Sequence record: PP488543.1
Reading direction: 5' to 3' (one strand)
Source: Escherichia phage BP9
Length of the DNA: 64,000 nt
Shown: one piece after another, positions 42,084 through 59,260 of the stretch
Layout of the letters: each line of letters starts with the position of its first letter
Position numbering within the stretch: position 1 is the stretch's first letter
Notes under the pieces: generated by a model
Told to the model about the DNA's origin: nothing
Databases searched by the model: none
Seen by the model: the letters and a program-made list of their open reading frames with translations, nothing else
Made by a program: the position numbers and the translations under genes

Positions 42084-42095
42084 TGGCCCCTGTCA

Positions 42096-43151: not shown

Positions 43152-43158
43152 AAACGTG

Positions 43159-43187
43159 TTGACTTTACCCTAAATCCACGATATAGT
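43159..43187 (+). promoter_or_regulatory. sigma70-type promoter (TTGACT-17 bp-TATAGT) for the plus-strand accessory block
   Basis: -35 at 43159-43164, -10 at 43182-43187 in the divergent intergenic region; AGGAG Shine-Dalgarno precedes the ATG at 43228. Confidence 0.5.
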
Positions 43188-43227
43188 GCACCCATTCGAA
43201 AGAAAACGAACACAGGAGTACTTAATC

Positions 43228-44127
43228 ATGGCAAATCTTAACAGCTTTAGCACTCGGTGGAAACAAGATATCACAACCAATCTCTCAGCAGGCGATATCC
43301 TTTCTGCAATTTACGAGGCTTTGGATGATAAAGCTACTTCAAAAGCGGTTTGTACCAACCCACTAATTCCTGTAGTGATGAAGGTTATTGAGCGTAGATT
43401 GGTATCTGGGTCTGATAAGTGGACATATTTAGATAATGAAGGACACACCTATTCCAATGGGTACGTCGATATAAAAGTAGAATACGCGGTATCATACCGC
43501 CGGAGCGGTTCTGTAACTTTCAACTTCTCTGGAGGTTTTCGATCTCTGGCTACCTCACCTTTTGTTTCCTCAGAGGAGAAGTATGAGCTTCCATTTCTTT
43601 GGATGATGGCTAACGCGACAGGAAAAACCCCCGTTAGCATCCGAGTAAAATACAACTACAACGGATCTAGTAAGATCTATGCCGAGAGTGTCTCAGCAAG
43701 TTTTTATTTTGTGATGGGGGATGGAATCCTCAAACATATAAAGATGTGCGATATGCATGATGTTATAAATGAAGTGACTGATAAGAATGTTCTGGTGAAG
43801 GATCTCAACAATTTTTATACACCCGGAGACTATTACGTCAGCCGTCCACTGTGCATCTTTAATGCCGCACACCCTCTAGGTGAGTATTTGATCGCCAATA
43901 GCGATATTGCCAATAACCGCTTCGAGGTAGCAAGAGTACAGAATGAGGTATTGACATCTTGCAAGAGCGGTGATAAGTTTACCGAAGAAGAGATGGGTGT
44001 TTTAGAAATGATGGGATATAAGTGTAGCCTTTGGGTAGATGAGGTGTTTAATGATTGCATCTATGGACAGGATATTTACCCATTAAAGAAGTATACTGAT
44101 TCCAGTTTAATTTACGCGGAGATTTGA
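43228..44127 (+). CDS. hypothetical protein (300 aa)
   Basis: ATG at 43228 with AGGAG Shine-Dalgarno; the track start at 43186 overlaps the promoter -10. Confidence 0.45.
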   Translation: MANLNSFSTRWKQDITTNLSAGDILSAIYEALDDKATSKAVCTNPLIPVVMKVIERRLVSGSDKWTYLDNEGHTYSNGYVDIKVEYAVSYRRSGSVTFNFSGGFRSLATSPFVSSEEKYELPFLWMMANATGKTPVSIRVKYNYNGSSKIYAESVSASFYFVMGDGILKHIKMCDMHDVINEVTDKNVLVKDLNNFYTPGDYYVSRPLCIFNAAHPLGEYLIANSDIANNRFEVARVQNEVLTSCKSGDKFTEEEMGVLEMMGYKCSLWVDEVFNDCIYGQDIYPLKKYTDSSLIYAEI

Positions 44128-44402
44128 CTATGATGAAGTCATGTGGTAGTGTATATTATGTTGGTGAGAATGTTCAGGCAGATAGTGTGTGGAAATCCAT
44201 TAAGTCCACCACCGATGATGCCTTTCTGAGCGGGTTATGCTTTCCCAGCCCAGGGGACACTCTCCCTTACCCTGGAGATTTTGTTGTCAACAAGATGGAC
44301 GGTTATACCGTGTGCCTGATGGTTGAAAAAATCTTTTTAGACACTAGACACAATCACCGTCTTGTGTTAAAATTTCAAGAATGTAAAATGACAATTGCCT
44401 AA
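44124..44402 (+). CDS. hypothetical protein (92 aa)
   Basis: 4-bp start/stop overlap with the upstream gene. Confidence 0.35.
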   Translation: MTMMKSCGSVYYVGENVQADSVWKSIKSTTDDAFLSGLCFPSPGDTLPYPGDFVVNKMDGYTVCLMVEKIFLDTRHNHRLVLKFQECKMTIA

Positions 44403-44415
44403 GGAGACCTTGCCG

Positions 44416-44772
44416 ATGTCTAAAGTTACTTATCGTGCAGCTATTTACTGCAATGAACACCCAATCTATAATGATGGTCACTGCCTTTTTAAAGAAAATC
44501 AATTGGGCTGTATTGTCCTCCCTGATGAAGGTGAAGGTTATCTGATTGCGTTGACAGGGTTTGAACCTGAAGCTCTGGAAACCAATCTTGACTACCTGGT
44601 AGAAGAGGGTGCTGCAGACCTGGTTGCCAATGGCCTATCCGTAAGCCTTGATGAAGTGGAGCGCTTCATGGGCAATTACCGTGTAGTGCGTGAGTTTACT
44701 ATCGAGGTGGAAACTCCAGAGTGGGGTAGCACTGAAACTAATGCCGAAGAAAAAGAAGAGGAGGTAGAATAA
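44416..44772 (+). CDS. hypothetical acidic protein (118 aa)
   Basis: ATG at 44416 preceded by TAAGGAGA; the track start at 44395 is less likely. Confidence 0.4.
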   Translation: MSKVTYRAAIYCNEHPIYNDGHCLFKENQLGCIVLPDEGEGYLIALTGFEPEALETNLDYLVEEGAADLVANGLSVSLDEVERFMGNYRVVREFTIEVETPEWGSTETNAEEKEEEVE

Positions 44773-45029
44773 TGAAAGTGCAGATCTTGACTAATGCCGA
44801 GAAGATGTTTATTGAAGATACACCTTTTGAAGCTGGTGAGCTACAGTTCGTTTATTTTGTTGACTTAGATAAGGTGTTCCCTGCACTGAATCTGGGTCTG
44901 GATGAAGTTCCTCATAAGGTTTTGTGCCAAGTTGTTCGTGCCTTAGCGGCAGAGGGGGAGTTCCACACCCTTCAAGATATCCAGACCTACGGGTATCTTG
45001 AACTACAACGAGAAGAAGAGGTGGACTGA
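44772..45029 (+). CDS. hypothetical protein (85 aa)
   Basis: Stop/start overlap with the upstream gene. Confidence 0.35.
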   Translation: MKVQILTNAEKMFIEDTPFEAGELQFVYFVDLDKVFPALNLGLDEVPHKVLCQVVRALAAEGEFHTLQDIQTYGYLELQREEEVD

Positions 45030-45031
45030 TA

Positions 45032-45412
45032 ATGGCTCAGTGGAAGACAACAGTTGACCTTCATGATCAGTGGTTAGGACGCATCACTGAAGACGGGAAG
45101 TTAGTTGAGTGGGACAATAAGCATGTTAGCGAGTTGGCAAGTATTGTGGCTGGCAAGTTACGATCCAAGTTCCCTGAACAACTGGATCCTGATAGTTCAA
45201 AGTTCGATCCTGAGTTGGAGGATGTTGTATACTACTTCGACACCGTGGATGACTACGATGCGTGGTTTGCAGCACGGGAGCTTTACCCACAAGGATCTGC
45301 TATGCGCCAGATGGAAGAAGATTATCCTCCGTGCGAGCAATTCAATAGTGCAATGACTTGCCTCTACGATTGGGCAGATAAGAACCTTGTCTGGATTCGG
45401 ACTGCATTTTAG
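45032..45412 (+). CDS. hypothetical protein (126 aa)
   Basis: Tightly packed ORF. Confidence 0.4.
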   Translation: MAQWKTTVDLHDQWLGRITEDGKLVEWDNKHVSELASIVAGKLRSKFPEQLDPDSSKFDPELEDVVYYFDTVDDYDAWFAARELYPQGSAMRQMEEDYPPCEQFNSAMTCLYDWADKNLVWIRTAF

Positions 45413-45456
45413 TGGGCAGGAATGGCGGCAAGGATGCTGCTTAAGGAGTAGTAGAG

Positions 45457-45726
45457 ATGTTATACCAGCAATATGAACTTCGTGCAGAAAAAGAGTTAAA
45501 TTTTGACAAAGATATTCACAGATATTATTATGGGAAAGTTAGAGGGCAAGCAAGAAAGTGTACTCCAACACTCTTTTATGCCAGCAGACGACTAGCGCCA
45601 GAAGAGGCAACAGCAGAAAGGGTTGCGTACAACTGGAGAGTCACGTATGATATTGACAGATCCGATGTGATATCTGTTTTGGAAAACTTTGAAAACACTT
45701 ACACACAAGTAGAGGACTTTTACTAA
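45457..45726 (+). CDS. hypothetical protein (89 aa)
   Basis: Tightly packed ORF whose stop overlaps the ATPase start. Confidence 0.35.
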   Translation: MLYQQYELRAEKELNFDKDIHRYYYGKVRGQARKCTPTLFYASRRLAPEEATAERVAYNWRVTYDIDRSDVISVLENFENTYTQVEDFY

Positions 45727-46910
45727 TGTCAAGAAACGTATTTGAAAGTGGTCAAATCACTGTCCGTGAGTTGCCAGCTATCATTCAGTTTGCCCAGCGT
45801 CATAACCGATCTGTCCTGATTTTAGGACCAATGGGTGTGGGAAAGAGCCAGGTGATGAAGCAGATCGCAGACAATATGTTCGGTGAGCGAGATGACAACT
45901 TGGTTGACGTGCGGTTGTCAGATAAAGATCCTGCCGACTTATCTGGGCTACCTATCCCTGTAGAAGCGGATGGAACTACACGTACAGTGTTTGCAATTCC
46001 AGAATTTTGGCCTGCGGATCCTGGCTGGAGCGGAATTATCTTTCTGGATGAGCTCACTCATGCAGATAACTACCTGCAAAAGGTTGCAATGCAAATTATG
46101 CTCGACCACAAGTGCGGTACCTATGCATTCCCTAAAGGTTCTGTTTTTGTGGCTGCTGGTAACCGTTCTACAGATGGTGCGGTTCTTTCGGCGCTCGAAG
46201 CCCCTCTGGCTAACCGTTTTATCATTGTAGAAGTTACAAGCAATGCAGAGGTGTTTATTGAGGACTACGCATTCCTTAATGGGGTGCACTCCTCTGTAAT
46301 TGGATATTTGAAAAGAGTTCCATCAGCTATCGATAATTATGAGGCTATGGCTGAGATTAATTGTCCATCTTTTGCCACACCACGATCTTGGGTTGCTGCA
46401 TCTGACATCTTGCACGATTTTGACAGCGGTATTATTTCTGACGCTATGGCCCGTGTTCTTCTGCAAGGTGCTGTTGGTCACACTGCAGCGGTAGAGATCT
46501 GGACTTACCACATCAAGAAACGTAACTTACCGGAAATCGGTCGGATTATGGCAGGAGGTTGCAAAGAATATGTAGGTCCTAAACAGCCAGACATCTTGTG
46601 GATTCTTGGATCTGAAGGTTGTATCGCTATTCGTAATATGATGGAAAATGCAAGTATCTCCGACGAAGATCTTGTTAGCTGTGTGGCAAACTTCCTCGAT
46701 TTCCTTTGGGAAAATTTCAAGGACGAGAACCGAGATTTTGTATTCTCAGTCTTTATGGCGATGATGAAACCTAATGCCTTAGGAAATGCCTTGCTTATCG
46801 GTAAAGGGCGTGACAAGATTGTTGCTCAGCTGATCAAAGCATACCCAAACCTAATGAAGATTGTAAAAGAGTTTGGTGAAGAGTTTAGCGCCATTTTGGC
46901 TAAAGCTTGA
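45726..46910 (+). CDS. MoxR-type AAA+ ATPase (AAA_5 family)
   Basis: Walker A LILGPMGVGKSQ, Walker B IIFLDELTHA, sensor region VFVAAGNRSTDGA..LANRF typical of MoxR/RavA-like ATPases. Confidence 0.8.
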   Translation: MSRNVFESGQITVRELPAIIQFAQRHNRSVLILGPMGVGKSQVMKQIADNMFGERDDNLVDVRLSDKDPADLSGLPIPVEADGTTRTVFAIPEFWPADPGWSGIIFLDELTHADNYLQKVAMQIMLDHKCGTYAFPKGSVFVAAGNRSTDGAVLSALEAPLANRFIIVEVTSNAEVFIEDYAFLNGVHSSVIGYLKRVPSAIDNYEAMAEINCPSFATPRSWVAASDILHDFDSGIISDAMARVLLQGAVGHTAAVEIWTYHIKKRNLPEIGRIMAGGCKEYVGPKQPDILWILGSEGCIAIRNMMENASISDEDLVSCVANFLDFLWENFKDENRDFVFSVFMAMMKPNALGNALLIGKGRDKIVAQLIKAYPNLMKIVKEFGEEFSAILAKA

Positions 46911-46919
46911 GGAGGTTGT

Positions 46920-47300
46920 ATGGCTAAAGTAGGTAAGCGGGGAAACTACTTGGTAGTATTGACCGAGGAGCCGGAGAAGGAGTACGAATGCAGCTCCACT
47001 TGCGTGATCGATATCCGAGAAAAAGATGTAGATGAAATCTGGTTTGAAATATTAGACGCTTGCGACAGCAGTGATTATTTCTTCATCTATGTCAACGATA
47101 AAGCCGGGTTCTTCCATGACGACGGAGAGTTGCCGTATGAAATCTATGAGCTTGTAGAGGCTTGCCATCGTGGAGATGCGGAGTTGTTTGGCTTACGGCT
47201 GAAAAGCGGTAAATTCTTCTATCAAGATGAGTGCATGAATCTTCATAACTTTGTAGAGGGAACTTGCAACGATGGAGAGATTTTGGTACACTACGATTAA
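46920..47300 (+). CDS. hypothetical acidic protein (126 aa)
   Basis: ORF followed by a strong terminator. Confidence 0.4.
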   Translation: MAKVGKRGNYLVVLTEEPEKEYECSSTCVIDIREKDVDEIWFEILDACDSSDYFFIYVNDKAGFFHDDGELPYEIYELVEACHRGDAELFGLRLKSGKFFYQDECMNLHNFVEGTCNDGEILVHYD

Positions 47301-47311
47301 TTTCTAAGACA

Positions 47312-47340
47312 CCCCCGCTTCGGCGGGGATTTTCTATTTG
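47312..47340 (+). terminator. rho-independent terminator (ccccgc-UUCG-gcgggg + T-rich)
   Basis: Same hairpin core as the terminators at 15348 and 21161. Confidence 0.75.
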
Positions 47341-47348
47341 GAGTTATT

Positions 47349-47849
47349 GTGAAAATTAAGATCTTTGCTATTATTTTGAGCGCACTTTTATCGCTGCCTG
47401 TTGTTGCAGCACCAAAACAAAAAGTATATCATACTTGCAAGCCATCGGATACTAAGGAAAACATTCTGGCATGCAATATCTACAGGGAAGCTAGAGGAGA
47501 TGGCACGATGGGTATGCTGGCATCTGGGTTTGCCACCCTAAACAGGAAATCTCATCCCAAATACCCGGACACTATAAGAAAGATTGTCTACCAACCTAAT
47601 CAGTTTTCGTGGACAACCTACGGCAAAACTTTTAAGGTGACAGAAAAAGATTCATGGGATCACGCTAAAAGTCTTGCAAAGATGCTTCTAAAGGTCTATA
47701 ATAACAACCATGTTGCATACATGGCTATGGATATAACAGGTGGAGCAACACACTACCATACGACCAAAGTACGACCGAAATGGGCAAAAAAGATGCAGAG
47801 GACAGCTCAATTCGGGAGTCATATCTACTACAAGGAGCGCAATAAATGA
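47349..47849 (+). CDS. secreted cell-wall hydrolase, SleB/CwlJ (Hydrolase_2) family, with N-terminal signal peptide
   Basis: GTG start after GGAG. Signal peptide MKIKIFAIILSALLSLPVVAAP. Conserved block NIYREARGDGTMGMLASGFATLNRKSHPKYPDTIRKIVYQPNQFSW matches the SleB-family consensus (..EARGE..GQ.AVA.V..NR..S..FP.T...VVFQP.QFS). Confidence 0.7.
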   Translation: MKIKIFAIILSALLSLPVVAAPKQKVYHTCKPSDTKENILACNIYREARGDGTMGMLASGFATLNRKSHPKYPDTIRKIVYQPNQFSWTTYGKTFKVTEKDSWDHAKSLAKMLLKVYNNNHVAYMAMDITGGATHYHTTKVRPKWAKKMQRTAQFGSHIYYKERNK

Positions 47850-49828
47850 TTGTAAACAGTAATGAAACTAAAGCAGTGCTAACTGGAAATATGGAGGTCA
47901 CCAGGGGCTCAATTTCTCTGAACAAAGAGACTTTTGGGCTAATCATTAAAGGGATTTACGAAGATAAGGTGCTGGCAAGCTGCCGTGAACCAATCTTCAA
48001 TGCTGTGGACTCTCATGTTGAGTCTGGACGGGGTGATGTACCGATCATCATTCACTCTCCTACAGACCTTGAACCATACTTCTTTGTGCAGGACGTTGGA
48101 TTAGGCATGTCAGAAGAGATGGTCCGCAACACTTTCATGAACCTCGGAGAGTCAACCAAGCGCAACAGCAACGCTCTGGTGGGTAATAAAGGTGTTGGTT
48201 CAAAGGCCCCGTTCAGCATGGTGGACACTTTCGATGTGATCAGTGTACACAATGGTGTTGAAAGCACATATCTATTGTTCTTGGATCAGGGTATCCCAAA
48301 CGTTACCAAAATCCGCGAGCGGAAGACCGAAGAGCACAATGGGGTAAAAGTTCAGTTCCATGTTAAGAAAGAGCATGTTCTGAAATATCGCACTGCTATT
48401 GCATCATGCCTACGCTATGCAAAGTTTCCGTTTACCGTTACCGATCCTATGACCAATAAGATGCTGGAAGGTGACAAGGTTGAGGCGCAGTATCGCTACG
48501 AGAAAGATGGTTGGAAAATGACCATCCTAAAGGGCTATACCAGCTCTGACGAGAGTCGCGTGGTAATGGGTCACCAACCTTACCGTTCTAAGTTCCTGGA
48601 GACATTAACAGACTACCCTGCAATCTGTGTAGAGATCCCTATCGGGGATTGCAATATTAACCCTGGGCGCGAATGGACCATAGAGGGGCACGACGATGGT
48701 GGATTCCAAGAGCGGTTGGAGGCTTTTGTCAAAGAGGGTATCCGTCTTCGTGGGGCAGAAGTTGTTGCGGAATTGGAGACAGCAAAAACATCCTCAGAAG
48801 CACGTGAGATGATGAAGAACAGTGGAGTGTTCGGGCACATCTTCGGTAAGAATTTTATGTGGGACCGATGGGAAGAGACAGGACTAGGAAGTTTGGGAGA
48901 TTGTGAGATCTTCGCTGGCGGCTTAAATAAAGGCCGCATAGGTTACGCCTGCTACGGAAAGTCGGAGTTCTTACGAGGGGTCTACTTAGTGTTTAACGAC
49001 GGAGACGGCAAATATAACCGAAATAAGTGTAACTACTTAAGCGAGATCACCGGACGCAACGTTTTCTATTGCCGTAACACGGATTTGGTGGAAGAGTTTA
49101 AAGAAGCGGCACACCACCCGTTCTTTGCAGATACGGTCAAATTGTTATCAGAGCTTCCTCGCCGACCTGTGAAGAAAGGTGAAACCAAAACTCGTTACGA
49201 GCCAGGCTATTGGGTTAAAAAACTTGAGAAGGATGGTTACTTCCGTCGTGAGCGTATTACTAAGGCAGAGTTCAGGAAGATTAAGCACTGCATTCCTTAT
49301 GAGGGTGATATCCAACGTGGAAGTTGTTGGCTGGGACAGCTGAGTAACATCTACCAGCAAAATTATGACCGTGTGCGTGCGGCACTCCAGATTCCTGAAG
49401 GGGAAGATCTGTACCTAGTATCAGAATCTCGTCTGCTTTGGACTGATCCTGATTGCCAGTATGTTACAGAGAAGAATGTGGAACATTTGTTGAAAGAGGA
49501 CGCCTGGAAATTCTTACTGACTCGCGCAGCAAATGAAACTTCATATGACAGCCTGTATAGACAATTAGGGAAAATTATTCCCATGCAAGATTTTGGAAAT
49601 TATCGGCCACATTTCCACAAGTGGGAAGGTAACACCGCGTGGAAGCACAGTGAGCTAAATCATCGTGCCAAAATCTTAATCGCCAACCGAGTTAAATGCG
49701 GGAAGGCCTATATTGCAAGATTGGAAAAGAAATACCCACTTTTGAAGCATGTAGGCTTGAAATATTGGGACACTCCTGCTATGATTGAATACCGTGAACT
49801 GATCGATACAAAGAATAACATCAAATAA
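47846..49828 (+). CDS. GHKL (Bergerat-fold) ATPase-domain protein, possibly rIIA-like (660 aa)
   Basis: N-box FNAVDSHVESG, G1 box VQDVGLGMS and G2 box GNKGVGSKAPF in the N-terminal 150 aa; start overlaps the hydrolase stop (ATGA). The rIIA relationship is an inference from domain architecture. Confidence 0.55.
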   Translation: MIVNSNETKAVLTGNMEVTRGSISLNKETFGLIIKGIYEDKVLASCREPIFNAVDSHVESGRGDVPIIIHSPTDLEPYFFVQDVGLGMSEEMVRNTFMNLGESTKRNSNALVGNKGVGSKAPFSMVDTFDVISVHNGVESTYLLFLDQGIPNVTKIRERKTEEHNGVKVQFHVKKEHVLKYRTAIASCLRYAKFPFTVTDPMTNKMLEGDKVEAQYRYEKDGWKMTILKGYTSSDESRVVMGHQPYRSKFLETLTDYPAICVEIPIGDCNINPGREWTIEGHDDGGFQERLEAFVKEGIRLRGAEVVAELETAKTSSEAREMMKNSGVFGHIFGKNFMWDRWEETGLGSLGDCEIFAGGLNKGRIGYACYGKSEFLRGVYLVFNDGDGKYNRNKCNYLSEITGRNVFYCRNTDLVEEFKEAAHHPFFADTVKLLSELPRRPVKKGETKTRYEPGYWVKKLEKDGYFRRERITKAEFRKIKHCIPYEGDIQRGSCWLGQLSNIYQQNYDRVRAALQIPEGEDLYLVSESRLLWTDPDCQYVTEKNVEHLLKEDAWKFLLTRAANETSYDSLYRQLGKIIPMQDFGNYRPHFHKWEGNTAWKHSELNHRAKILIANRVKCGKAYIARLEKKYPLLKHVGLKYWDTPAMIEYRELIDTKNNIK

Positions 49829-49838
49829 GGAGACCAAG

Positions 49839-50738
49839 ATGATTTTCATCTACGAACATTTCAAAACCCGTAAAGAAGCAAGAGACCGCCGTGCAGAACT
49901 TGAGAAGAAGGGTTTCATATGTGCCATTGAGAAAGGCGACACAACCTGGACACTGGCAGTTGGTGCCCCAGAGTTGTTCGATCCTGACCGTGACAGCGTC
50001 TGCTACACCCGTGAAGATTTTGAAACCCGCGAAGAGGCCCGTTTATTTCGATACGGTCTGGAAGATAACGGTAAGTACGCCATGATCTTAGATTTAGGCG
50101 AAGGGTCCGTTAAACGTTGGGGCGTGGTATACCCACTGTGTGTTGTTCATGGTGTGGGGTTCACTGGGGTAGCAATCAAGTCAGAAGAACCTTTAGTAGA
50201 AGTCAAAGATCCGGTGCTGGAGGTGGTGAGCAGTGTATCTCAGCAACAGACTCGAAGTATTGAGCCTTTGGTAGTTATTTGTGGGGAACTCCTCCAGATC
50301 ACCTGCAACGAAGGCATTTTTGAAATTCGCCGCAGTGAAAGTGAGGAAGTTTACCAGAAAGTCTTCGACCATATCTCTGTCCAGAAATATGACGAGGCAA
50401 TTGGTGAAATCCTTGTCTGGTTGGAACGCAAGAATGAGTTCACTACACTTGCAGACAACCTGATCATGAAAGATGGTAAGCTCTACTACTACGGTGTAGA
50501 GATGCGATCCACCATTGCAAAGAAAATTGAGAAAGATTATGCAGACGGAACACTAGATGACCGCTATGTGAAATTCCTAGTTCGCCTGCTACGCAATCCT
50601 TCTGCAAAATCTGTAAACATGCTCTACGATTTTATGCAGGCCAACGATATCCAGCTTGCAGAAGATGGTCGAATCATTTGCTACAAAGGAGTTCATTTTC
50701 CATCGTTTTTTTGCCGAGCAGGAGCTGGAGTTCTTTAA
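49839..50738 (+). CDS. hypothetical protein with two N-terminal repeats; 3' end replaced by IS2 sequence (possible rIIB-like partner, unverified)
   Basis: Repeats [19 protein letters not shown] / [18 protein letters not shown]; the last ~17 codons are encoded by IS2-derived DNA (IS2 homology begins at about 50688), so the native C-terminus is lost. Confidence 0.4.
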
Positions 50739-50976
50739 TCTGCTTCATGGCAGCAGCAAGTTCAGAGGCAGGAACGACCTGTTCTCCTGCGGCCACAGCA
50801 GTAAGACTTCCCTCCTGGTATTGCTTGCGCCAGAGAAATAACTGGCTGGCTGCCACACCGTGTTGCCGGGCAACAAGGGAGACCGTCATTCCCGGTTCAA
50901 AGCTCTGCTGAACAATAGCGATCTTTTCCTGTGTAGTACGCCGTCTGCGTTTCTCCGGTCCTAAGACATCAATCAT
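50674..50976 (-). pseudogene. insC: truncated IS2 insC (orfA) reading out of the IS fragment into phage DNA
   Basis: InsC N-terminal ~96 aa are intact, then the frame runs across the junction at about 50688 and terminates at 50674. Confidence 0.8.
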
Positions 50977-51067
50977 CTGCTCTCCAATGACTAGTCTAAA
51001 AACTAGTATTAAGACTATCACTTATTTAAGTGATATTGGTTGTCTGGAGATTCAGGGGGCCAGTCTA
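50688..51067 (-). mobile_element. IS2 fragment (left inverted repeat plus 5' part of insC/orfA), truncated internally
   Basis: Reverse complement matches the IS2 left end TAGACTGGCCCCCTGAATCTCCAGACAACCAATATCACTTAAATAAGTGATAG... and the start of InsC ([84 protein letters not shown]..); only ~380 bp of the 1.3-kb element is present. Confidence 0.9.
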
Positions 51068-51386
51068 TATTCCACGCTGTACTGCAGTGATGAATGGAGT
51101 ATCTTCTGATCTTATCGGTTCAAATTCGTTTCAGGTAAACCCATCTATTTTTCACAAACATACTAGTTCAATCGATGTCAATAATGGAATTCATTCTATG
51201 GCATACGATAATCACATGGCCTCTGGTAACATTGCAGAAACTGAAATATCTGAACTTACTCAGGATATTGTATCTAAAATAAAACTTGGTTATGCAAGTG
51301 AAACGACTTCTGGAGTTGATGTTGTTATTGCCAGAGTGCAGGTTATTTTTGATGGATTAACATCATCTGGAGTTTGCAGGAAATAA
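51068..51386 (+). CDS. 3' remnant of a gene interrupted by the IS2 insertion (product unknown)
   Basis: The frame is open across the IS2 end at 51067; the encoded C-terminal ~100 aa are Gly/Ser/Asn-rich; no family recognised. Confidence 0.3.
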
Positions 51387-51549: not shown

Positions 51550-51966
51550 ATGGTGTGTGCTATGTCGGTTAACATAACAACTGAGTCTTTAAATCAATGG
51601 CTTAGTGTGAGCTCTCTTGCTGCGGTTATCGTAGGCGTTCCGCCAGAGGTGGCGCTCGGTGCTCTTGCTGGCGCGGTAATTTTTGTTACCTCTGCGGTAG
51701 AGTATCCAATTCGTCGTCGCGTACTCTTGTCGATGCTCAGCTTTCTCTGCGGACTTCTTTTCTACAAACCAGCAGCATCAATTCTTATCGGCATAGCCAG
51801 CCTGATCCCTACCATCACGCAGGACTCTTTTGAAAAAGGTATTGTTTTCTCTGCTGGCGCATTCGTGTCAGCAATTGTCGCTGTGCGTATTGGTATATGG
51901 CTCTACCACCGTTCAGACAATCCACGCGATTTAATTCCGGGGAGAAAAGACGATGGTAACGCATGA
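51550..51966 (+). CDS. putative holin (multi-pass membrane protein, 138 aa)
   Basis: 3-4 predicted transmembrane helices; first gene of a cassette containing endolysin and spanins; alternative in-frame start at codon 5. Confidence 0.5.
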   Translation: MVCAMSVNITTESLNQWLSVSSLAAVIVGVPPEVALGALAGAVIFVTSAVEYPIRRRVLLSMLSFLCGLLFYKPAASILIGIASLIPTITQDSFEKGIVFSAGAFVSAIVAVRIGIWLYHRSDNPRDLIPGRKDDGNA

Positions 51967-52261
51967 GTTTTTTTTGCTTATCACCAATGCAGTTATTTGT
52001 ACTGGCATAGCAATTCGCGTTGTCACATTCCGGCGTAACGGATCTCAACACCGAAGATGGGGTGGGTGGATTGCTTATTTCCTGATTGTTGCTGCGGCCA
52101 GTATTCCTGTTCGTGTCGTTTATGCAATCTGGTTACGCACGCCAATGGCTGTGGATTTATCTGAGGTCATTATCAACGCTGTCATGCTTGCTGCGGTTAT
52201 TAAAACGCGCGGTAACGTCGTTCAGATTTTCAAAATAACGAGGTCTAAACATGGAGATTAA
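51953..52261 (+). CDS. putative second lysis membrane protein (holin/antiholin-like, 102 aa)
   Basis: Three hydrophobic helices; overlaps the holin stop and the endolysin start. Confidence 0.45.
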
Positions 52262-52880
52262 ACAATTCCAGCGAGCTGCTGGTATTAGAGAGGCGCTGGC
52301 CGCTCGCTGGTTCTCGCATATAACTTCTGCGATGAAAGAGTTTGGTATCAGCAAAGCAGAGGATCAGGCAATGTTTATTGCTCAGGTCGGGCATGAATCT
52401 GTGGGCTTCACCAGATTGCAGGAGAATTTCAACTACAGTGTCAGCGGTCTGGCTAACTTCGTTCGGGCTGGGCGTCTCACTCAGGGGCAGGCTAATGCAC
52501 TGGGTCGCCGTGCTGGTGAACCACCATTGCCACTCGAGCGCCAGCGAGCGATCGCCAATCTGGTGTACAGCAAACGCATGGGGAACAATTCCCCTGGTGA
52601 CGGCTGGAATTACCGAGGCCGTGGACTTATCCAGATTACCGGTTTGAATAACTATCGTGACTGCGGAAACGGCCTGAAAGTGGACCTGCTGGAGAATCCT
52701 GAACTGTTAGCGCAGGACGAATATGCGGCTCGTAGCGCGGCGTGGTTCTTCTCCAGCAAAGGTTGCATGAAGTATACCGGCGATATTGCACGTGTAACTT
52801 TGATTATCAATGGTGGCAGGAACGGCATCGACGACCGGAGAGCGCGGTACATCACTGCCAGTAAGGTGCTGGCGGTATGA
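52251..52880 (+). CDS. endolysin, glycoside hydrolase family 19 (chitinase-like lysozyme)
   Basis: GH19 signatures ([12 protein letters not shown] ... [16 protein letters not shown]) in a lysis-cassette context. Confidence 0.8.
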
Positions 52881-53359
52881 TCTGGGCATTCGTAAAAGCA
52901 TACTGGAAACAGTTGCTTATCGTGGCGGTGCTTGCTGTTCTGGTCATATCAGGGGTTGTTGCCTGGAATGTACACGGTAGTCGTCAGTACGACGCCGGGT
53001 ATGCACAGGCGAAAGAAGACCGCAAAACCGAAGATGAGAGAGTTCGTCAGCACTACGAACAGGAGAAATCGATCAATGAACGTGAAGCGCAGCAGAGGAT
53101 CGACCAGGCGCGCAATGATGCTCTTGATGCTGCCGCTCGCGCTGGCCGGTTGCAGCAACAGCTCGTTGCCATCCGTGAGCAGCTCAGGCAGTATAACGCC
53201 ATTGTCGGCGCTGGGACGTCAGCCGCAGACACCGGAGTTTTGCTTGCCGACGTGCTCAGTAAATCTCTCGAGAGAAACAGACAACTGGCAGAGTATGCTG
53301 ACCGGGCAGCCGAAGCCGGAAGAGTCTGTGAAAAACAGTACGACACCCTGACCAGATAG
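52877..53359 (+). CDS. Rz: i-spanin (Rz-like)
   Basis: N-terminal transmembrane segment ([18 protein letters not shown]) followed by coiled-coil periplasmic domain; contains an embedded lipoprotein gene in another frame. Confidence 0.65.
53076..53351 (+). CDS. Rz1: o-spanin (Rz1-like outer-membrane lipoprotein) embedded within Rz
   Basis: ATG at 53076 preceded by AGGAGAAATCGATCA; lipobox LALAGC ([30 protein letters not shown]), Pro-rich mature part; entirely inside the Rz gene in a different frame. Confidence 0.7.
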   Translation: MNVKRSRGSTRRAMMLLMLPLALAGCSNSSLPSVSSSGSITPLSALGRQPQTPEFCLPTCSVNLSRETDNWQSMLTGQPKPEESVKNSTTP

Positions 53360-53532
53360 CATGGCATTTTTCATGGTACTGATTTCCGGTGACGGTATAT
53401 AAAACGGTACGGTAAAAATTGAGATTTGGAAAAATGTTATCACTCAATTGGTTATGGTATCCGTAAATAATTGAGTGGGAATGATTAACAGCTAACTCAT
53501 AGCAAATCATTCCTATTCAGATGCTAACTCAA

Positions 53533-53566
53533 CCCTCTGTTTTTGCAGAGGGTTTTTGTTTTTATG
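53533..53566 (+). terminator. rho-independent terminator downstream of the lysis cassette
   Basis: ccctctg-tttttg-cagaggg hairpin followed by tttttgtttttat. Confidence 0.6.
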
Positions 53567-53676
53567 TATTCATTTCTATTCACTCTACACCATATTTTTC
53601 GGCGGTACAGGTGACGGTATTACCTTAAAGGTATACTCTCATACCGTCATGAAAATGGTTTCTATATGGGTGAATT

Positions 53677-54933
53677 GTGCTTACCGATACAAAATTAAAA
53701 AACCTCAAGCCGCAGGACAAACTGTACAAGGTCTCCGACCGTGACGGGCTGTATGTAGCTGTGCTTACGTCAGGCACGGTCTCGTTTCGCTATGACTACC
53801 GTATCAACGGTCGCCGCGAAACACTGGTAATCGGGCAGTATGGGCGTGACGGTATCAGCCTGGCAGAAGCGCGAGAAGAACTGATTGCTGCAAAGAAGCT
53901 GCTTAAAGCAGGCCAGTCACCGGCTGCGGCTAAACGTGACGGTATCAAAAAGATTCGTGGTGCCGAGACGTTTGCGGTACATACCGACAGTTATATGAAA
54001 CACGTCATCCTGGCTGACAGTACCCGCGCAATGAAGCAGGCGGTGATCGACCGTGACATACTTCCGGTTCTTGGCAACAAAATGATGGCTGAAATTACCA
54101 CATCGATGGTTCGTGATTTGTGTGACCGGATTGTCGAACGCGGTGGTCGGGCAACAGCAGTACAGGCCAGGGAGATCATCAGCAGCGTATACCGTCACGC
54201 CAATGACCGTGGTCATGGTTTGTTTAATCCTGCGGCTGACATTAAACCTTCGTCTATCGCCATATTTAAACCACGAGAGCGAACACTGACACCAGAAGAA
54301 ATTGGCCTGTTCTTCCGCACGCTGGATGCCATTGGTGCTATGGGCACTATGAAAATGGCTTTAAAGCTGGTGCTTATCACTATGGTTCGTAAAGGCGAAT
54401 TCACCAATGCAACGTGGGATGAAATAGATTTTAAAAAATGGACATGGACAATTCCTTCAGACCGCATGAAGGGAAGCCGGGCGCACGTTATTTACCTGCC
54501 TAAACAGGCACAGGATATATTGGTTGGGTTGCAGATGTGCGCTGGTGGAAGTGAATATCTGGTTCCTGGTCGTTACAATTTCCGGAAGCCATTATCTAAT
54601 GCCGCGCTGAACTCTCTGATCGACAGAACGGTGAAAATAATAAATGAAGATGGTGAGCATATTCAGGGCTTCACCGTACACGATATGCGCCGTACAGCCA
54701 GTACGTTGTTGCATGAGGCTGGTTATCCTTCAGACTGGATTGAAAAGGCGCTGGCACATGAGCAGAAAGGTGTGCGCGCCGTATATAACAAAGCGGAATA
54801 CGCCAGACAGCGCGCCTGGATGTTGCAGCAGTGGGCCGATATGATTGATTCCTGGATTAACGGGGAGCATACGGATCTGATTCCGTTCTCCCCGTCGAAG
54901 TTTGAGAGGTGGATGGAAGACAGTAATAAATAA
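53677..54933 (+). CDS. int: tyrosine integrase, P4-like family
   Basis: N-terminus MLTDTKLKNLKPQDKLYKVSDRDGLYVAVLTSGTVSFRYDYRINGRRETLVIGQYG is the classic P4-type integrase arm-binding domain; the C-terminal catalytic region contains HDMRRT and a tyrosine near the end (RAVYNKAEY). Confidence 0.9.
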   Translation: MLTDTKLKNLKPQDKLYKVSDRDGLYVAVLTSGTVSFRYDYRINGRRETLVIGQYGRDGISLAEAREELIAAKKLLKAGQSPAAAKRDGIKKIRGAETFAVHTDSYMKHVILADSTRAMKQAVIDRDILPVLGNKMMAEITTSMVRDLCDRIVERGGRATAVQAREIISSVYRHANDRGHGLFNPAADIKPSSIAIFKPRERTLTPEEIGLFFRTLDAIGAMGTMKMALKLVLITMVRKGEFTNATWDEIDFKKWTWTIPSDRMKGSRAHVIYLPKQAQDILVGLQMCAGGSEYLVPGRYNFRKPLSNAALNSLIDRTVKIINEDGEHIQGFTVHDMRRTASTLLHEAGYPSDWIEKALAHEQKGVRAVYNKAEYARQRAWMLQQWADMIDSWINGEHTDLIPFSPSKFERWMEDSNK

Positions 54934-54935
54934 TT

Positions 54936-55595
54936 CTATCCTTCCTGGACTTTGGTAAGCGTCAGATTTCCGCAGAACACTGCGCCGGTGTCGATGTACA
55001 TCTGGTTTGCATACACCAGTGGGTGATGTGCTGGCGTATGACCGAAGATGAACAAATCGGCACCGGTTATCTCCGAGACAATACCGTCCTGCGCGTCGCT
55101 AACCCGCTCACGATTCCATATCACCATTTCTTCTGGTACTGGCTTATCGAATGCGTATTCGTTGTGCGGGTAGTCTGCGTGACAGATGACGACCTTCTTA
55201 TTGCCGGTAACCAGTTCGATAATCATCGGGAGGTTGGTAATCTTTGGCAGAAGGTATTTGAGTTGCACATCCTGCTCAGAATCAAGTTGGTGCCACCATC
55301 CACCGCCGTTTGACATCCAATGTCCGAAACTTCCGCCGTTGACCAGTGCATCCAGCATCATCTGCTCATGGTTGCCACGAACAGCTCGGAACCACGGCAT
55401 AGTAATCAAATCCAGGCATTCGACGTTTTCAGCGCCGCGGTCAACAAGGTCACCAACGGAAATAAGTAAATCGCGCGCCGGGTCGAATGAAACTTTGTCG
55501 AGTTCGTTCATCAGCAGCGTGTAGCACCCATGCAGATCGCCGACGACGAAGATATTGCACCAGTCAGCACCATTGATGCGTTGATATAGGTTCAT
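54936..55595 (-). CDS. Ser/Thr protein phosphatase (lambda NinI / PP-lambda-like metallophosphatase)
   Basis: Metallophosphatase motifs GDLHGC, GDLVDRG, GNHE. The probable start is the internal Met ([12 protein letters not shown]) at about 55595, giving ~219 aa and a 4-bp overlap with the upstream gene; the track ORF extends to 55715. Confidence 0.85.
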
Positions 55596-56242
55596 GCTGC
55601 ACGCTCCCGCCCCTGGTTGTCTATTGGTGACACCGGAGCATTGCTGAATGCATTTGTTAATCCGCCAATATCCAACGCGTATCCAGGGTGTAGTTGCACT
55701 ACCGGGTCTTCGCACTGATTACCCCAAACATCGAAGCCATGAGACGTCTGGCGGGCGAACAGTTCAATGCGAGAAACATCGCCTAACAATTGCACAAGTT
55801 TTTCACGAACGACATCTGGTTTTCTTGAATGCTCAAGCCGCGGTGCGGTAAATGCCTGAACGATCCCTGCATTAATGCGTGGAGGTAGTTTTCCCTTTAC
55901 TGCAAACAGGCAATCTTCACTATTGGCGCGAGTCATGTGTCCCATACCCATAACCAGTTTATCTGGTTGTCGACTACCACATTTTATCCACGTGAAGCCC
56001 TTCATCGTCATCAGACGAAATCCCCAGGCTTCAACAACTTTTAGTGCTTCGAGTGGTTGTGTTGGCACCCACCACATGGCCAACAGACAGTTTTCATCGG
56101 CCAAATCCCACACAGGAAGGCGGCAGATATCCAGCACACTCATAACCGGATATTTAAAACCGGCACCGCGATTACCATCTGCGGCTTTGTCCCGGTATAC
56201 CCAGGGTGGATCTGCATAGATTAGCGTGTATTTCTTAGTCAT
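55592..56242 (-). CDS. MT-A70 family N6-adenine DNA methyltransferase (orphan, no cognate nuclease seen)
   Basis: Catalytic DPPW motif ([10 protein letters not shown]) and the MT-A70 fold pattern. Confidence 0.8.
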
Positions 56243-56534
56243 AAACCACCCCGCAACATCCTATGCCGCTATAGTCGCCACGGCGAAGGCCGTTACCTTT
56301 TGTGATACATTGGTCCCTGCGAACCGCGATCCTTGCACGCTCAACATCACCAGAAGCAACATCCATACACTTAAGCCAAAGGTGAGCGGCAATGCGGAAC
56401 TGTCCTTTTTTCTCTCTTTCAATTGCGCGTTTTTCGAACTCTATCGCCGCAGGAGTAACGGCGACAATCTTTGACGGACTGCGCATTGAAACCTTGTTCA
56501 TGTGATATTTTTCAAGTCGGCTTAACTTTCTCAC
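56235..56534 (-). CDS. hypothetical early protein (99 aa)
   Basis: ORF in the leftward early operon overlapping the methyltransferase start; no family recognised. Confidence 0.35.
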   Translation of the reverse strand: MRKLSRLEKYHMNKVSMRSPSKIVAVTPAAIEFEKRAIEREKKGQFRIAAHLWLKCMDVASGDVERARIAVRRDQCITKGNGLRRGDYSGIGCCGVVYD

Positions 56535-56643
56535 TTAATCCAACCCTCTCTGAAAATTAATGCCAGCAGATAAAGCCATGCTGAAACAGAGGCCAGGAAT
56601 AAGTACCATCCTGACCATTTGCTCCAGTGCCTTAGCAGCACAC

Positions 56644-56892
56644 TCATGCAGCGTTGCTCACAGGACGATATACACGTTGCTGAACAGGAGGCTTTTTACC
56701 CTGGAACTCTGCCGGGCTTGCTGCCTGACGTTCATCAAGCCAACGCTCAACTTCATCACGGTTCCATGCGCAGCGTTTGTCAGTGATATACCAGCGTTTA
56801 GGAAATTCCCCTGCGCGCTCCATGCGGTCGATAGTGCTCCATGACAGTGGCACCACCGCCAGGAGTTCCTTCTTACCTAATGCACCTTTCAT
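56644..56892 (-). CDS. AlpA-family transcriptional regulator / putative excisionase
   Basis: MerR-like helix-turn-helix (..ELLAVVPLSWSTIDRMERAGEFPKRWYITDKRCAWNRDEVERWL) typical of AlpA/Xis proteins that accompany P4-type integrases. Confidence 0.6.
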   Translation of the reverse strand: MKGALGKKELLAVVPLSWSTIDRMERAGEFPKRWYITDKRCAWNRDEVERWLDERQAASPAEFQGKKPPVQQRVYRPVSNAA

Positions 56893-56941
56893 AAATACCT
56901 CTCTTGGTTGCAGTGCGGCGCGCGTGGCGCCGCGGTGGTGG

Positions 56942-57910
56942 TTACATAGATGTTTCGTTTAATTCTTCCCGACGAACGCTGTAAACGTCGGTGGCTTTTG
57001 CCAGCAGTTCGTCATCATCTGAAAGTTTTTGTGCAATGTATTTGTAAGCTTTATCCAGTTCGGAGACAGTGCTGTAATTCATCGCTGCGCTGGTAAAGGC
57101 CATCAGCATTTCTTCTGGATCACGGCTATCCGCTTTACGCGTTTGCTCATCAGGCTTTTTCACTTGTTTAGCGTTGATCAGACTGTTCATTCCCGCAGCA
57201 GTGGTCGTTTGCGGAGTAATGTCTCGCTCAACGCGCGGTGCCGTTTCCTGTAATTCGTCTGGTGTGTAGACGCCCATGATTACGTCAGGACAGTGCAAGC
57301 GAGACCAGCGTTTTGTCGCAAGGTATGCGAGTTGTTGTTTCGGATCACTGGCCCAAAGTGTGGAGTTTCTTACCTGTGCTTGAGATAGCATTAACTCAAG
57401 CACTCGAGGTTGATCCTCGCCCTTCATGGTTGCCCATACGCGAACACCGCAGCCTTCTTCGTCTTTTAGAGTCCAGCCTGGTGCAATATATGGATTGCCG
57501 TTTTTGGATGTTTTCTCAACAAACTTACCGATCACGCGTTCCCACGGCCCGAACCACTCGTAGTTGATGCGATCTTTTGTTGGCGACATCGTTGAGATAA
57601 CTGCGTTTACTAATTGGGCTTCATAACCTAGCGTGCCGTTCACAACATGGGTTTTCTGAGCCACGGCAAACGGGTTCATTCCCCACTGCGCAGCCTGCAT
57701 TGCCACGGCCATGCAATCAGCTGGTTTCCCGGCGAGGTGCGCCGGTACCGTTACGCGGCTTTGCGCCATTACCTCGGCGAATTTCATCAGTTGGTTCAAG
57801 CCGTCTGGGCTGAAAATAGTTGCAGCAGTTCCAGCGATTGCTGTGTCTACTGGTGCGTTGATGTTTGCGATGTCGTTGCTCATATGTACATATCCTGTTT
57901 GCGTGCCCAC
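56942..57910 (-). CDS. RecT/Red-beta-family single-strand annealing protein
   Basis: Domain order and conserved C-terminal block (QQLAYLATKRWSRLHCPDVIMGVYTPDELQE) resemble RecT; overlaps the upstream exonuclease gene as in recET/red operons; probable ATG start at about 57883. Confidence 0.55.
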   Translation of the reverse strand: MGTQTGYVHMSNDIANINAPVDTAIAGTAATIFSPDGLNQLMKFAEVMAQSRVTVPAHLAGKPADCMAVAMQAAQWGMNPFAVAQKTHVVNGTLGYEAQLVNAVISTMSPTKDRINYEWFGPWERVIGKFVEKTSKNGNPYIAPGWTLKDEEGCGVRVWATMKGEDQPRVLELMLSQAQVRNSTLWASDPKQQLAYLATKRWSRLHCPDVIMGVYTPDELQETAPRVERDITPQTTTAAGMNSLINAKQVKKPDEQTRKADSRDPEEMLMAFTSAAMNYSTVSELDKAYKYIAQKLSDDDELLAKATDVYSVRREELNETSM

Positions 57911-59012: not shown

Positions 59013-59171
59013 ATCTCGTTATCGTTGGCCACATCGCGAGCTTCTTTGCTGACGAAAGCCCACTTAATGCCTTCCTGTAAGGTGCGGAACTTCCAGCTCA
59101 TGAATCCGCATGCAGTAACGCAGTACCAACCGTTGATGATTTTCCACTGCATAACTTGTTACCTCGGTCTG

Positions 59172-59186
59172 TTACCGTTGAGGTAA
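59172..59186. promoter_or_regulatory. operator half-site pair TTACC-N5-GGTAA (leftward early promoter region)
   Basis: TTACCgttgaGGTAA; an extra TTACC half-site lies 9 bp upstream. Confidence 0.5.
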
Positions 59187-59232
59187 TGATTATGCGTATT
59201 TGGTTTGGTGTCAATAGATATGAGTTAAAAAA

Positions 59233-59249: not shown

Positions 59250-59260
59250 TGTGTAGACAA

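What the first reader, a model, noticed from the sequence alone, without database searches (positions are those of the whole stretch)
50674..51100. Internally truncated IS2 marks the junction between two modules
Only the first ~380 bp of IS2 (left end plus the 5' part of insC) are present. The true IS2 terminus at 51067 abuts the remnant of an interrupted gene upstream of the lysis cassette, while the internal break at about 50688 is fused in-frame to the 3' end of gene 49839..50738. Transposition inserts whole elements, so a second event (IS-mediated deletion, recombination between IS copies, or mis-assembly) joined the 50-kb structural/accessory region to the lambdoid region. No Q antiterminator gene is evident in the window where one would be expected upstream of the lysis cassette (51068-51549).
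Basis: partly seen in the sequence, partly recalled or inferred. Interest (0 to 1): 0.55.

Follow-up and report, generated by a model that had tools for sequence, protein, structure and literature searches.

The report
Chimeric join of two phages inside IS2
The truncated IS2 is real in the sequence, but it marks where 50.7 kb of a strictly lytic rV5-like phage is stuck onto an unrelated temperate phiV10-like phage at a 4-base microhomology, most likely a chimeric molecule or contig and not a genuine mosaic prophage.

Summary
Window 50686-51067 (minus strand) is IS2 nt 1-382 of 1331. Its true left terminus sits at 51067 and its internal break at 50686-50689.

The flanks are not two modules of one lambdoid prophage:
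- Positions 1-50689 are collinear with virulent rV5-like myoviruses (Vequintavirus) and end inside rIIB, at residue ~283-285 of 401.
- Positions 51068-64000 are a phiV10/epsilon15-like temperate podovirus in its unintegrated form: tailspike 3' end, lysis cassette, attP core 53470-53486, integrase, early genes.

IS2 inserted cleanly into the tailspike gene (target TATTC). In this phage family the lysis cassette follows the tailspike, so no Q antiterminator is expected there.

The rIIB/IS2 join lies at an exact 4-nt microhomology (AAGG) within a 12/14 similar patch (P about 4e-5 for random joins). That points to template switching. It argues against transposition, IS-IS homologous recombination and blunt ligation.

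The only private substitutions near the join (50655, 50723) lie 31 and 34 nt beyond the two ends of the microhomology. Neither junction occurs in any collection searched.

Best reading: a template-switch chimera carried into an assembly of a mixed phage sample (~0.65). The rival is a genuine but dead-end in vivo illegitimate recombinant (~0.25). Interest is low.

The parts
1..50689 (+). Collinear segment of a virulent rV5-like myovirus (Vequintavirus) genome: tail, baseplate and tail-fibre genes ... rIIA and rIIB'
   Evidence: Single-piece megablast matches cover 100% of 1-25000 and of 25001-50000 at ~95-96% identity to many Vequintavirus records. Positions 48000-50699 are 99.9% identical to PQ014731. 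No match to 5,426 complete E. coli genomes for 44000-50686.
47846..49828 (+). rIIA (660 aa), intact
   Evidence: Annotated RIIA in PQ014731. The exact protein occurs on 23 contigs read from public assemblies (24 index blocks); in the 10 shown it is followed by an intact 401-aa rIIB. Pfam HATPase_c_3.
49839..50738 (+). Truncated rIIB fusion ORF (299 aa). The first 283 codons come wholly from native rIIB (intact 401 aa) and residues up to ~285 are unchanged. About 14 residues then read from IS2 antisense sequence to a stop.
   Evidence: Intact rIIB (PF26926) followed by a PIF1-like helicase in L006-L015.
50655..50655 (.). Private substitution (C; relatives have G or A) 31 nt left of the microhomology
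   Evidence: It is the only difference from L008, L009, L012 and L015 in 47846-50689. None of 115 phage records matches 50622-50689 at 100%.
50686..50689 (.). Crossover: exact 4-nt microhomology AAGG, inside a 14-nt patch (50686-50699) that is 12/14 identical between rIIB and IS2. The IS2 bases are kept at both mismatches (50690, 50696).
   Evidence: Alignments. Simulation of random joins gives P(microhomology >=4) = 0.015 and P(12/14 patch) = 4e-5.
50686..51067 (-). IS2 nt 1-382 of 1331 (IRL end, leader, 5' part of orfA/insC, A7 frameshift run at 50706-50712). orfB (DDE transposase) and IRR are absent.
50677..50976 (-). Truncated insC/orfA: 97 native codons plus 3 foreign codons (CSK) before a stop
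   Evidence: Pfam HTH_Tnp_1, E=1e-18.
50723..50723 (.). Private substitution in IS2 (A on the + strand; IS2 copies have C; InsC R->L) 34 nt right of the microhomology
   Evidence: It is the only difference from the CP168035 IS2 copy in 382 nt. The best full-length match among 6,643 E. coli records (18,667 IS2 places) is 98.6%, i.e. 1 mismatch.
51068..51072 (.). IS2 target pentamer TATTC in the tailspike gene (expected 5-bp duplication; only this copy is in the window)
   Evidence: The intact gene reads ...ATAATA|TATTCCACGC. The window reads ...CCAGTCTA|TATTCCACGC.
51068..51386 (+). 3' remnant (last ~105 codons, from codon 763 of 868) of the SGNH/GDSL-hydrolase tailspike gene of a phiV10-like phage
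   Evidence: 100% identical to CP063492, whose intact gene encodes 868 aa. PF13472 Lipase_GDSL_2 on intact copies.
51550..53359 (+). Lysis cassette: holin (51550-51966), 3TM holin (51953-52261), GH19 endolysin (52251-52880), DUF2514 Rz-like protein (52877-53359)
   Evidence: Pfam PF16931, PF05449, PF00182 and PF10721. Same order in CP063492 and in L016-L025.
53470..53486 (.). attP core attgagtgggaatgatt with phage arms on both sides (unintegrated or tandem form)
   Evidence: In the CP063492 prophage the two arms lie ~40 kb apart and overlap by these 17 nt. The same 17-mer is published as the attP of phiV10, epsilon15 and vB_EcoP_ZX5 and corresponds to the guaA 3' end (PMC9782041).
53677..54933 (+). 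P4-type tyrosine integrase of the phiV10-like phage
   Evidence: Pfam Arm-DNA-bind_3, Phage_int_M and Phage_integrase.
53487..64000 (+). int plus early region (phosphatase, MT-A70 methylase, RecT, PD-(D/E)XK nuclease, repressor region, DnaT-like, replication protein P ...) of the same phiV10-like phage
   Evidence: 99.8% identical to CP063492 4333177-4343731. Collinear with the virion genome of phiV10 DQ126339 at 96%.

Best explanation
The window is a composite of two unrelated phage genomes that were present in one sample.

- Partner 1 is a virulent rV5-like myovirus.
- Partner 2 is a spontaneously induced, or tandem, phiV10-like temperate podovirus. Its tailspike gene had earlier received a genuine IS2 insertion.

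A nascent DNA strand copied tailspike -> IS2 IRL -> IS2 nt 382. It then dissociated and re-annealed through its last ~14 nt (12/14 match, the terminal 4 nt perfect) to the antisense strand of rIIB in the abundant rV5-like DNA, and was extended there. This one template switch most likely happened in vitro, during amplification or library preparation. The assembler then used that rare chimeric molecule as the only way out of the multi-copy IS2 repeat.

The join has no function. It leaves a truncated rIIB, an immobile IS2 stump (no DDE transposase, no IRR) and a tailspike stump.

Shown: the identities of both flanks, the exact breakpoints, the microhomology, the clean IS2/target junction, the attP form, and the absence of this junction elsewhere. 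Inferred: the direction of the switch and that it happened in vitro.
For: 1. The flanks belong to different phages with incompatible lifestyles. The left flank is collinear with Vequintavirus, and 44000-50686 has no match in any of 5,426 complete E. coli genomes. The right flank is a phiV10-like phage with its published attP core and both phage arms.
2. Each side is 99.9-100% identical to extant sequences right up to the break. Both broken genes are cut mid-ORF. The join is therefore very recent or not biological.
3. The junction is homology-guided: AAGG within a 12/14 patch, P about 4e-5 for random joins. IS2 bases are retained at both patch mismatches, as expected for a primer-end switch.
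4. The only private substitutions in 2.85 kb of phage and 382 nt of IS2 lie 31 and 34 nt outside the microhomology. The genuine IS2/tailspike junction, by contrast, is followed by 2,420 nt of 100% identity. This suggests the junction consensus rests on very few molecules.
5. A viable recombinant is implausible. At least 13.3 kb of foreign DNA replaces the path to the genes immediately downstream of rIIB: PIF1-like helicase, DnaB-like helicase and DNA polymerase.
6. The junction 50-mer is absent from IMG/VR, GTDB genomes and JGI metagenomes. The fusion proteins are absent from the 153-billion-gene index.
7. rV5-like genomes are known to be co-assembled with E. coli isolates, for example the circular 137.5-kb 'plasmid' CP057073. 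Virus/non-virus chimeric contigs are a documented assembly problem (PMC7417191).
Against: - No reads or coverage are available, so an artefact cannot be demonstrated directly.
- A 4-14 nt overlap is too short for a de Bruijn or overlap assembler to invent the join. A physical chimeric molecule must therefore have existed, and in vivo template switching leaves the same sequence signature.
- Assemblers usually prune rare chimeric branches off a high-coverage phage path.
- The two private substitutions could be real polymorphisms.
Confidence: 0.65

Rival explanations
1. This is a genuine in vivo illegitimate recombinant. In a cell infected by the rV5-like phage while the IS2-bearing phiV10-like prophage was induced and replicating, a 3' end stalled in IS2. 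It invaded rV5-like DNA at the short homeologous patch (microhomology-mediated template switching or short-homology recombination). The result was a hybrid concatemer abundant enough to be sequenced. It would be a dead-end molecule and could not propagate as a phage.
For: - The same microhomology signature applies.
- The unintegrated attP form shows that phiV10-like DNA was free or replicating, or tandem.
- The phiV10-like phage encodes RecT and a PD-(D/E)XK exonuclease in this window.
- Mutations clustered near a breakpoint are also what error-prone template-switch repair synthesis would leave. That last link rests on my own knowledge of break-induced replication and was not tested here.
Against: - Such hybrids should be rare relative to either parent and would not normally dominate a consensus.
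- No independent occurrence was found in any collection.
- No reciprocal product is present in the window.
- No structure-forming sequence that might stall a fork lies at either breakpoint.
Confidence: 0.25
2. This is a viable mosaic phage: an rV5-like virus that has stably acquired a block of phiV10-like DNA, with the IS2 stump, in its non-essential rIIB gene.
For: - rII genes are dispensable in permissive hosts (knowledge of T4, not tested here).
- Natural hybrids between lytic and temperate phages exist, for example Pseudomonas phage Ab31 (PMC3974807, title and abstract seen).
Against: - The insert is at least 13.3 kb with no return to rIIB within the window.
- The genes just beyond rIIB are the replication genes, so they cannot be deleted to make room.
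- All 10 contigs shown that carry the same rIIA, and 115 phage records, keep rIIB intact at this site.
- Established mosaics show diverged junctions. This join has 99.9-100% identity to both parents up to a mid-gene break.
Confidence: 0.04
3. This is an IS2-driven event: an IS-mediated adjacent deletion, or homologous recombination between two IS2 copies, one of them in the 50-kb region.
For: The IS2 stump sits exactly at the boundary.
Against: - Transposase-mediated deletions start at an IS terminus. Here the terminus (51067) is the intact side and the break is at internal nt 382.
- IS-IS recombination needs IS2 sequence on both partners. The phage partner has only a 12/14-nt chance resemblance, and intact relatives carry no IS2 in rIIB.
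Confidence: 0.02

Closest known systems
IS2 (IS3 family) insertion into a prophage gene
   Same: The junction at 51067/51068 is a textbook IS2 end. The exact IRL terminus abuts a TATTC target in the tailspike ORF, with orfA (HTH_Tnp_1) reading inward.
   Different: Only nt 1-382 of 1331 are present. There is no orfB, no IRR and no second copy of the target duplication, so the fragment cannot transpose.
Chimeric contigs or template-switch chimeras in virus and virome assemblies (e.g. PMC7417191)
   Same: Two biologically unrelated sequences from one sample are joined at a single point. Each side is near-identical to known genomes, and the junction lies inside a repeat that tangles assembly graphs.
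   Different: The join lies at a specific 4-nt (12/14) microhomology. It is not at a shared k-mer or a repeat boundary, so a physical chimeric molecule is implied and the assembler alone cannot have made it.
Short-homology illegitimate recombination between phage and other DNA (lambda bio/gal transducing-phage formation; T4 rII deletions between short repeats). Recalled from knowledge, not tested.
   Same: The breakpoint sits at a few bases of identity within a slightly longer imperfect match, and one partner is an rII gene.
   Different: The partners here are a virulent phage and a temperate phage's IS2 insertion. The product looks non-viable, and there is no evidence it was ever propagated.
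phiV10 / epsilon15 / vB_EcoP_ZX5 (Uetakevirus)
   Same: Gene order is tailspike, two holins, GH19 endolysin, DUF2514, attP (attgagtgggaatgatt), integrase, RecT/early genes. Identity to phiV10 is 96% over 84% of 51068-64000.
   Different: The tailspike is of a different type (868-aa SGNH/GDSL hydrolase, as in the CP063492 prophage) and is interrupted by IS2.
rV5-like phages (Vequintavirus), e.g. VB-EcoM-WM, vB_EcoM_YN3, rV5
   Same: 50.7 kb are collinear at 95-99.9% identity, including rIIA and rIIB.
   Different: rIIB is cut at residue ~283-285 of 401, and the genome does not continue into the helicase gene that follows in every relative examined.

Membership tests
IS2 (IS3 family insertion sequence) | Terminal inverted repeat IRL with the exact element terminus (5'-TAGACTGGCC...) | tested here: met
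   Window 51067 corresponds to the last IS2 base. It is identical to the annotated IS2 copy in CP168035, whose ends are fixed by a TATTC duplication.
IS2 (IS3 family insertion sequence) | orfA (InsC) with a helix-turn-helix transposase N-domain | tested here: met
   97 codons are present. Pfam HTH_Tnp_1 scores 67.7 bits, E=1e-18. The C-terminal part is missing.
IS2 (IS3 family insertion sequence) | orfB DDE transposase produced by -1 frameshift, and the right inverted repeat IRR (complete 1331-bp element) | tested here: not met
   Nothing beyond IS2 nt 382 occurs anywhere in the window. The piece is a non-autonomous fragment and does not form a complete IS2 element.
IS2 (IS3 family insertion sequence) | 5-bp direct target duplication flanking both ends | not testable with these tools
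   Only the IRL-side copy (TATTC, 51068-51072) is in the window. The IRR side is absent.
Vequintavirus (rV5-like virulent myoviruses): left flank | Genome-scale nucleotide identity and collinearity with members; no integrated form | tested here: met
   100% coverage of 1-50000 in single pieces at ~95-96%. No match for 44000-50686 in 5,426 complete E. coli genomes.
Uetakevirus (phiV10/epsilon15-like temperate podoviruses): right flank | Late-operon end of tailspike then lysis cassette, followed by attP core attgagtgggaatgatt and a P4-type integrase; guaA 3'-end integration | tested here: met
   The attP sequence matches the one published in PMC9782041.
   In intact relatives the gene upstream of the holin is the 868-aa tailspike. 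No Q-like gene is annotated in the CP063492 prophage near the lysis cassette.
Natural mosaic (hybrid) phage genome | Junction inherited by a propagating lineage (found in independent isolates or contigs; coherent, packageable genome) | tested here: not met
   The junction is absent from IMG/VR, GTDB genomes, JGI metagenomes, INPHARED phages, PLSDB, complete E. coli genomes and the gene index. Genome coherence beyond the window cannot be tested.

The most novel reading that the evidence does not exclude
The junction is a real in vivo product. A replication or repair 3' end from an induced, IS2-carrying phiV10-like prophage switched templates onto a co-replicating virulent rV5-like genome at a 12/14-nt patch. 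The two nearby substitutions would be scars of error-prone synthesis. That would be a directly captured intermediate of DNA flow between a temperate and a strictly virulent coliphage.
Probability: 0.25. Interest if true: 0.45.

Novelty: not a real feature. Interest (0 to 1): 0.15.

Why it matters
Mainly as quality control. A contig like this would be scored as a ~50-kb 'prophage' with myovirus structural genes, an integrase and a lysis cassette. It could also be read as a lytic phage carrying an integrase, which matters for phage-therapy safety screens. Neither reading is correct.

It also shows that the 'missing Q' is a wrong expectation for epsilon15/phiV10-like phages.

If the join were shown to be in vivo, it would be a modestly interesting snapshot of microhomology-mediated exchange between virulent and temperate phages.

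Tried and rejected
- **Finding the source or a second occurrence.** The rIIB/IS2 junction 50-mer was searched in viral, genome and metagenome contigs. The IS2/tailspike junction 35-mer was searched in the same three collections. Exact look-ups were run for the rIIB fusion ORF, the truncated InsC and two versions of the tailspike stump. The junction region was searched in E. coli genomes, phages and plasmids. All found nothing.
- **A sibling chimera.** I tested whether PP350014 'phage PH444' (115 kb, UNVERIFIED_ORG) is one. It shares only the phiV10-like block and none of the rV5-like part.
- **Stalling structures.** I tested whether a hairpin at either breakpoint could explain stalling or switching. 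DNA folds of IS2 nt ~333-443 and of rIIB around the break are no better than shuffles (z = 0.53 and -0.02).
- **IS-based mechanisms.** IS-IS recombination and transposase-mediated deletion were rejected on the anatomy of the break.
- **Chromosomal context on the right.** An integrated context was considered. The lysis-attP-int arrangement argues for the free or tandem form, although tandem elements at guaA do occur in chromosomes (H56-H59).
- **A failed first alignment.** My first three-way alignment used the wrong IS2 slice and was uninformative for IS2. It was redone by BLAST and in register.

Full report
**1. What is at the coordinates**

Reading 49700-52000 and listing ORFs shows the IS2 left end on the minus strand. 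It consists of ...CCAGTCTA ending at 51067, the leader, and an orfA/insC ORF (Pfam HTH_Tnp_1, E=1e-18).

Megablast against 5,426 complete E. coli genomes hits thousands of IS2 copies, but only over 50686-51067. Local BLAST gives 50687-51068 against the IS2 of CP146681 (95.3%). Register comparison with the closest copy (CP168035) gives one mismatch in 382 nt.

The CP168035 element is bounded by a TATTC duplication and is 1331 bp long. The window therefore carries IS2 nt 1-382 only. No further IS2 sequence, no rIIB 3' part and no tailspike 5' part occur elsewhere in the 64 kb.

**2. The left flank is a virulent rV5-like phage**

- Window 48000-50699 is 99.9% identical to Escherichia phage VB-EcoM-WM across rIIA and rIIB.
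- Windows 1-25000 and 25001-50000 are each covered 100% in a single piece at ~95-96% identity by many Vequintavirus genomes.
- ORF 49839-50738 is rIIB cut at residue ~283-285 of 401.
- In the 10 public contigs shown (of 23 read) that encode the identical rIIA, rIIB is intact. It is followed by a PIF1-like helicase, a methylase, a DnaB-like helicase and DNA polymerase A.
- A 6.7-kb sample of this block (44000-50686) has no match in any complete E. coli genome. That fits a strictly lytic lifestyle.

**3. The right flank is a phiV10/epsilon15-like temperate podovirus in unintegrated form**

Window 51067-53486 is 100% identical to the right end of a prophage in E. coli EF5-18-41 (CP063492). It covers the last ~105 codons of an 868-aa SGNH/GDSL-hydrolase tailspike, two holins, a GH19 endolysin and a DUF2514 protein.

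Window 53470-64000 is 99.8% identical to the opposite end of the same ~40-kb prophage: integrase, phosphatase, MT-A70 methylase, RecT, nuclease, repressor region and replication genes.

The two blocks overlap by 17 nt, ATTGAGTGGGAATGATT (53470-53486). This is the published attP/attB core of phiV10, epsilon15 and vB_EcoP_ZX5 at the 3' end of guaA (PMC9782041).

The same lysis-attP-int order is found in the virion genome of phiV10 (96% identity over 84% of 51068-64000). The right side is therefore the free or circular (possibly tandem) form of a Uetakevirus-like phage. It is not ordinary chromosome.

In this family the lysis cassette follows the tailspike. The 'missing Q antiterminator' is therefore not an anomaly.

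**4. Two junctions of different nature**

*(a) 51067/51068, a clean transposition junction.* The exact IS2 terminus abuts TATTC|CACGC at codon 763 of the tailspike gene. It is followed by 2,420 nt of 100% identity to an intact relative.

*(b) 50686-50689, not a transposition junction.*
- rIIB homology runs to ...CTACAAAGG.
- IS2 homology starts at AAGGAGTTCATTTTCC.
- The two share AAGG exactly and 12 of 14 positions over 50686-50699.
- The window carries the IS2 base at both mismatches, 50690 and 50696.

In 400,000 simulated random joins between a parent-like phage locus and IS2, 1.5% had at least 4 nt of microhomology and 0.004% had a 12/14 patch. The join is therefore homology-guided.

The simplest mechanism is a nascent strand copied from tailspike into IS2 whose 3' end (IS2 nt ~369-382) re-annealed on rIIB antisense DNA and was extended. 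This rules out three alternatives:
- IS-mediated deletion, which starts at IS termini.
- Recombination between IS copies, because the phage carries no IS2.
- Blunt ligation.

It is also too short an overlap for an assembler to have invented.

**5. A signature around the chimeric junction**

Over 47846-50689 the window differs from four independent contigs (L008, L009, L012, L015) at a single site, 50655. None of 115 phage records has the window's base there.

Over the 382 nt of IS2 the window differs from the CP168035 copy at a single site, 50723. Among 6,643 E. coli records holding 18,667 IS2 places, the best full-length match to 50692-50760 still has that one mismatch.

The two private substitutions lie 31 and 34 nt outside the two ends of the microhomology. 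The genuine IS2/tailspike junction has none. I read this as a sign that the consensus around the join rests on very few, error-bearing molecules. Error-prone synthesis in vivo is the alternative reading. The sequence alone cannot separate the two.

**6. Is it found anywhere else?**

No. The junction 50-mer is absent from IMG/VR, from one genome per GTDB species and from JGI metagenomes. The same holds for the IS2/tailspike 35-mer.

The fusion ORFs are not in the gene index. No phage, plasmid or E. coli record spans the junction.

**7. Best explanation and rivals**

*Favoured (~0.65).* A mixed sample held the rV5-like phage together with the induced phiV10-like phage of its host, and probably host DNA with other IS2 copies. 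It yielded a template-switch chimeric molecule. The assembler followed that molecule out of the IS2 repeat and produced a composite contig.

*In vivo rival (~0.25).* A microhomology-mediated illegitimate recombinant has the same sequence signature, and only reads or PCR can separate the two.

*Heritable mosaic phage (~0.04).* This is unlikely. At least 13.3 kb of foreign DNA sits where the replication genes should follow rIIB. Both parents are 99.9-100% identical up to mid-gene breaks.

*IS2-driven mechanisms (~0.02).* These are contradicted by the anatomy of the break.

No hairpin explains either breakpoint.

**8. Context**

rV5-like genomes do turn up inside E. coli isolate assemblies. CP057073 'plasmid pRHB39-C03_2' is a circular 137.5-kb rV5-like genome with rIIB intact. 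Chimeric virus/non-virus contigs are a recognised hazard (PMC7417191).

**9. Verdict**

- Nothing new in kind. The feature is most probably not a biological structure.
- Interest is 0.15.
- The most novel reading still allowed is an in vivo virulent-temperate hybrid (probability ~0.25, interest ~0.45 if true).

Noticed in passing
window 53470-53486 (with 51068-64000): The phiV10-like phage is present in its attP (lysis-attP-int) configuration, not as an attL/attR-bounded prophage. It was therefore excised or packaged, or sits in tandem. With IS2 in its tailspike gene it should be unable to make infectious particles, yet its DNA was sampled.
   Followed up: partly
window 50655 and 50723: Two substitutions are private to this window (absent from 115 phage records and from ~18,000 IS2 copies). 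They lie 31 and 34 nt outside the ends of the chimeric crossover. Both are non-synonymous (rIIB V/I->L, InsC R->L).
   Followed up: yes
L027 = CP057073.1 (PLSDB 'plasmid' pRHB39-C03_2, 137,565 bp, circular): A record deposited as an E. coli plasmid from cattle faeces is an rV5-like phage genome, 96.8% identical over window 49900-50699, with rIIA, intact rIIB and helicase. It shows a lytic phage carried along with an isolate assembly.
   Followed up: partly
phage records MG0656xx (hits H27, H68-H73, H78-H81, H128-H131): About 16-18 GenBank records named 'Campylobacter phage' (host C. jejuni) are ~95% identical to E. coli rV5-like phages over tens of kb. The host label looks doubtful.
   Followed up: no
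L028-L031 = PP350014.1 'UNVERIFIED_ORG: Phage PH444' (114,913 bp): This unannotated 115-kb 'complete phage genome' contains a ~10.8-kb phiV10-like lysis-int-early block (record 89821-100636). It shares nothing else with the window. Its size is far above the ~39 kb of a Uetakevirus, so it may itself be composite.
   Followed up: partly
window 51068-51072 versus L026 (CP168035 IS2 copy): The IS2 in the window and the nearly identical IS2 copy in CP168035 both sit at a TATTC target followed by C, although the loci are unrelated. Many top IS2 hits also extend 12-18 nt past the IS2 end. This may be a target-site preference or chance.
   Followed up: no
one search hits H53-H59 (e.g. CP070111, CP027599): In several E. 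coli chromosomes the same lysis cassette is followed directly by an integrase gene at 93-95% identity. Tandem arrays of guaA-site elements therefore exist, which is why a tandem-prophage origin of the attP-like junction cannot be excluded.
   Followed up: no
L005 (CP063492 prophage) 1189-1647: In the closest intact relative an IS200C copy sits between attR and yfgI. In CP146681 (L003) a different IS3-family element splits the first holin gene. This prophage's late end is a recurrent IS target.
   Followed up: no
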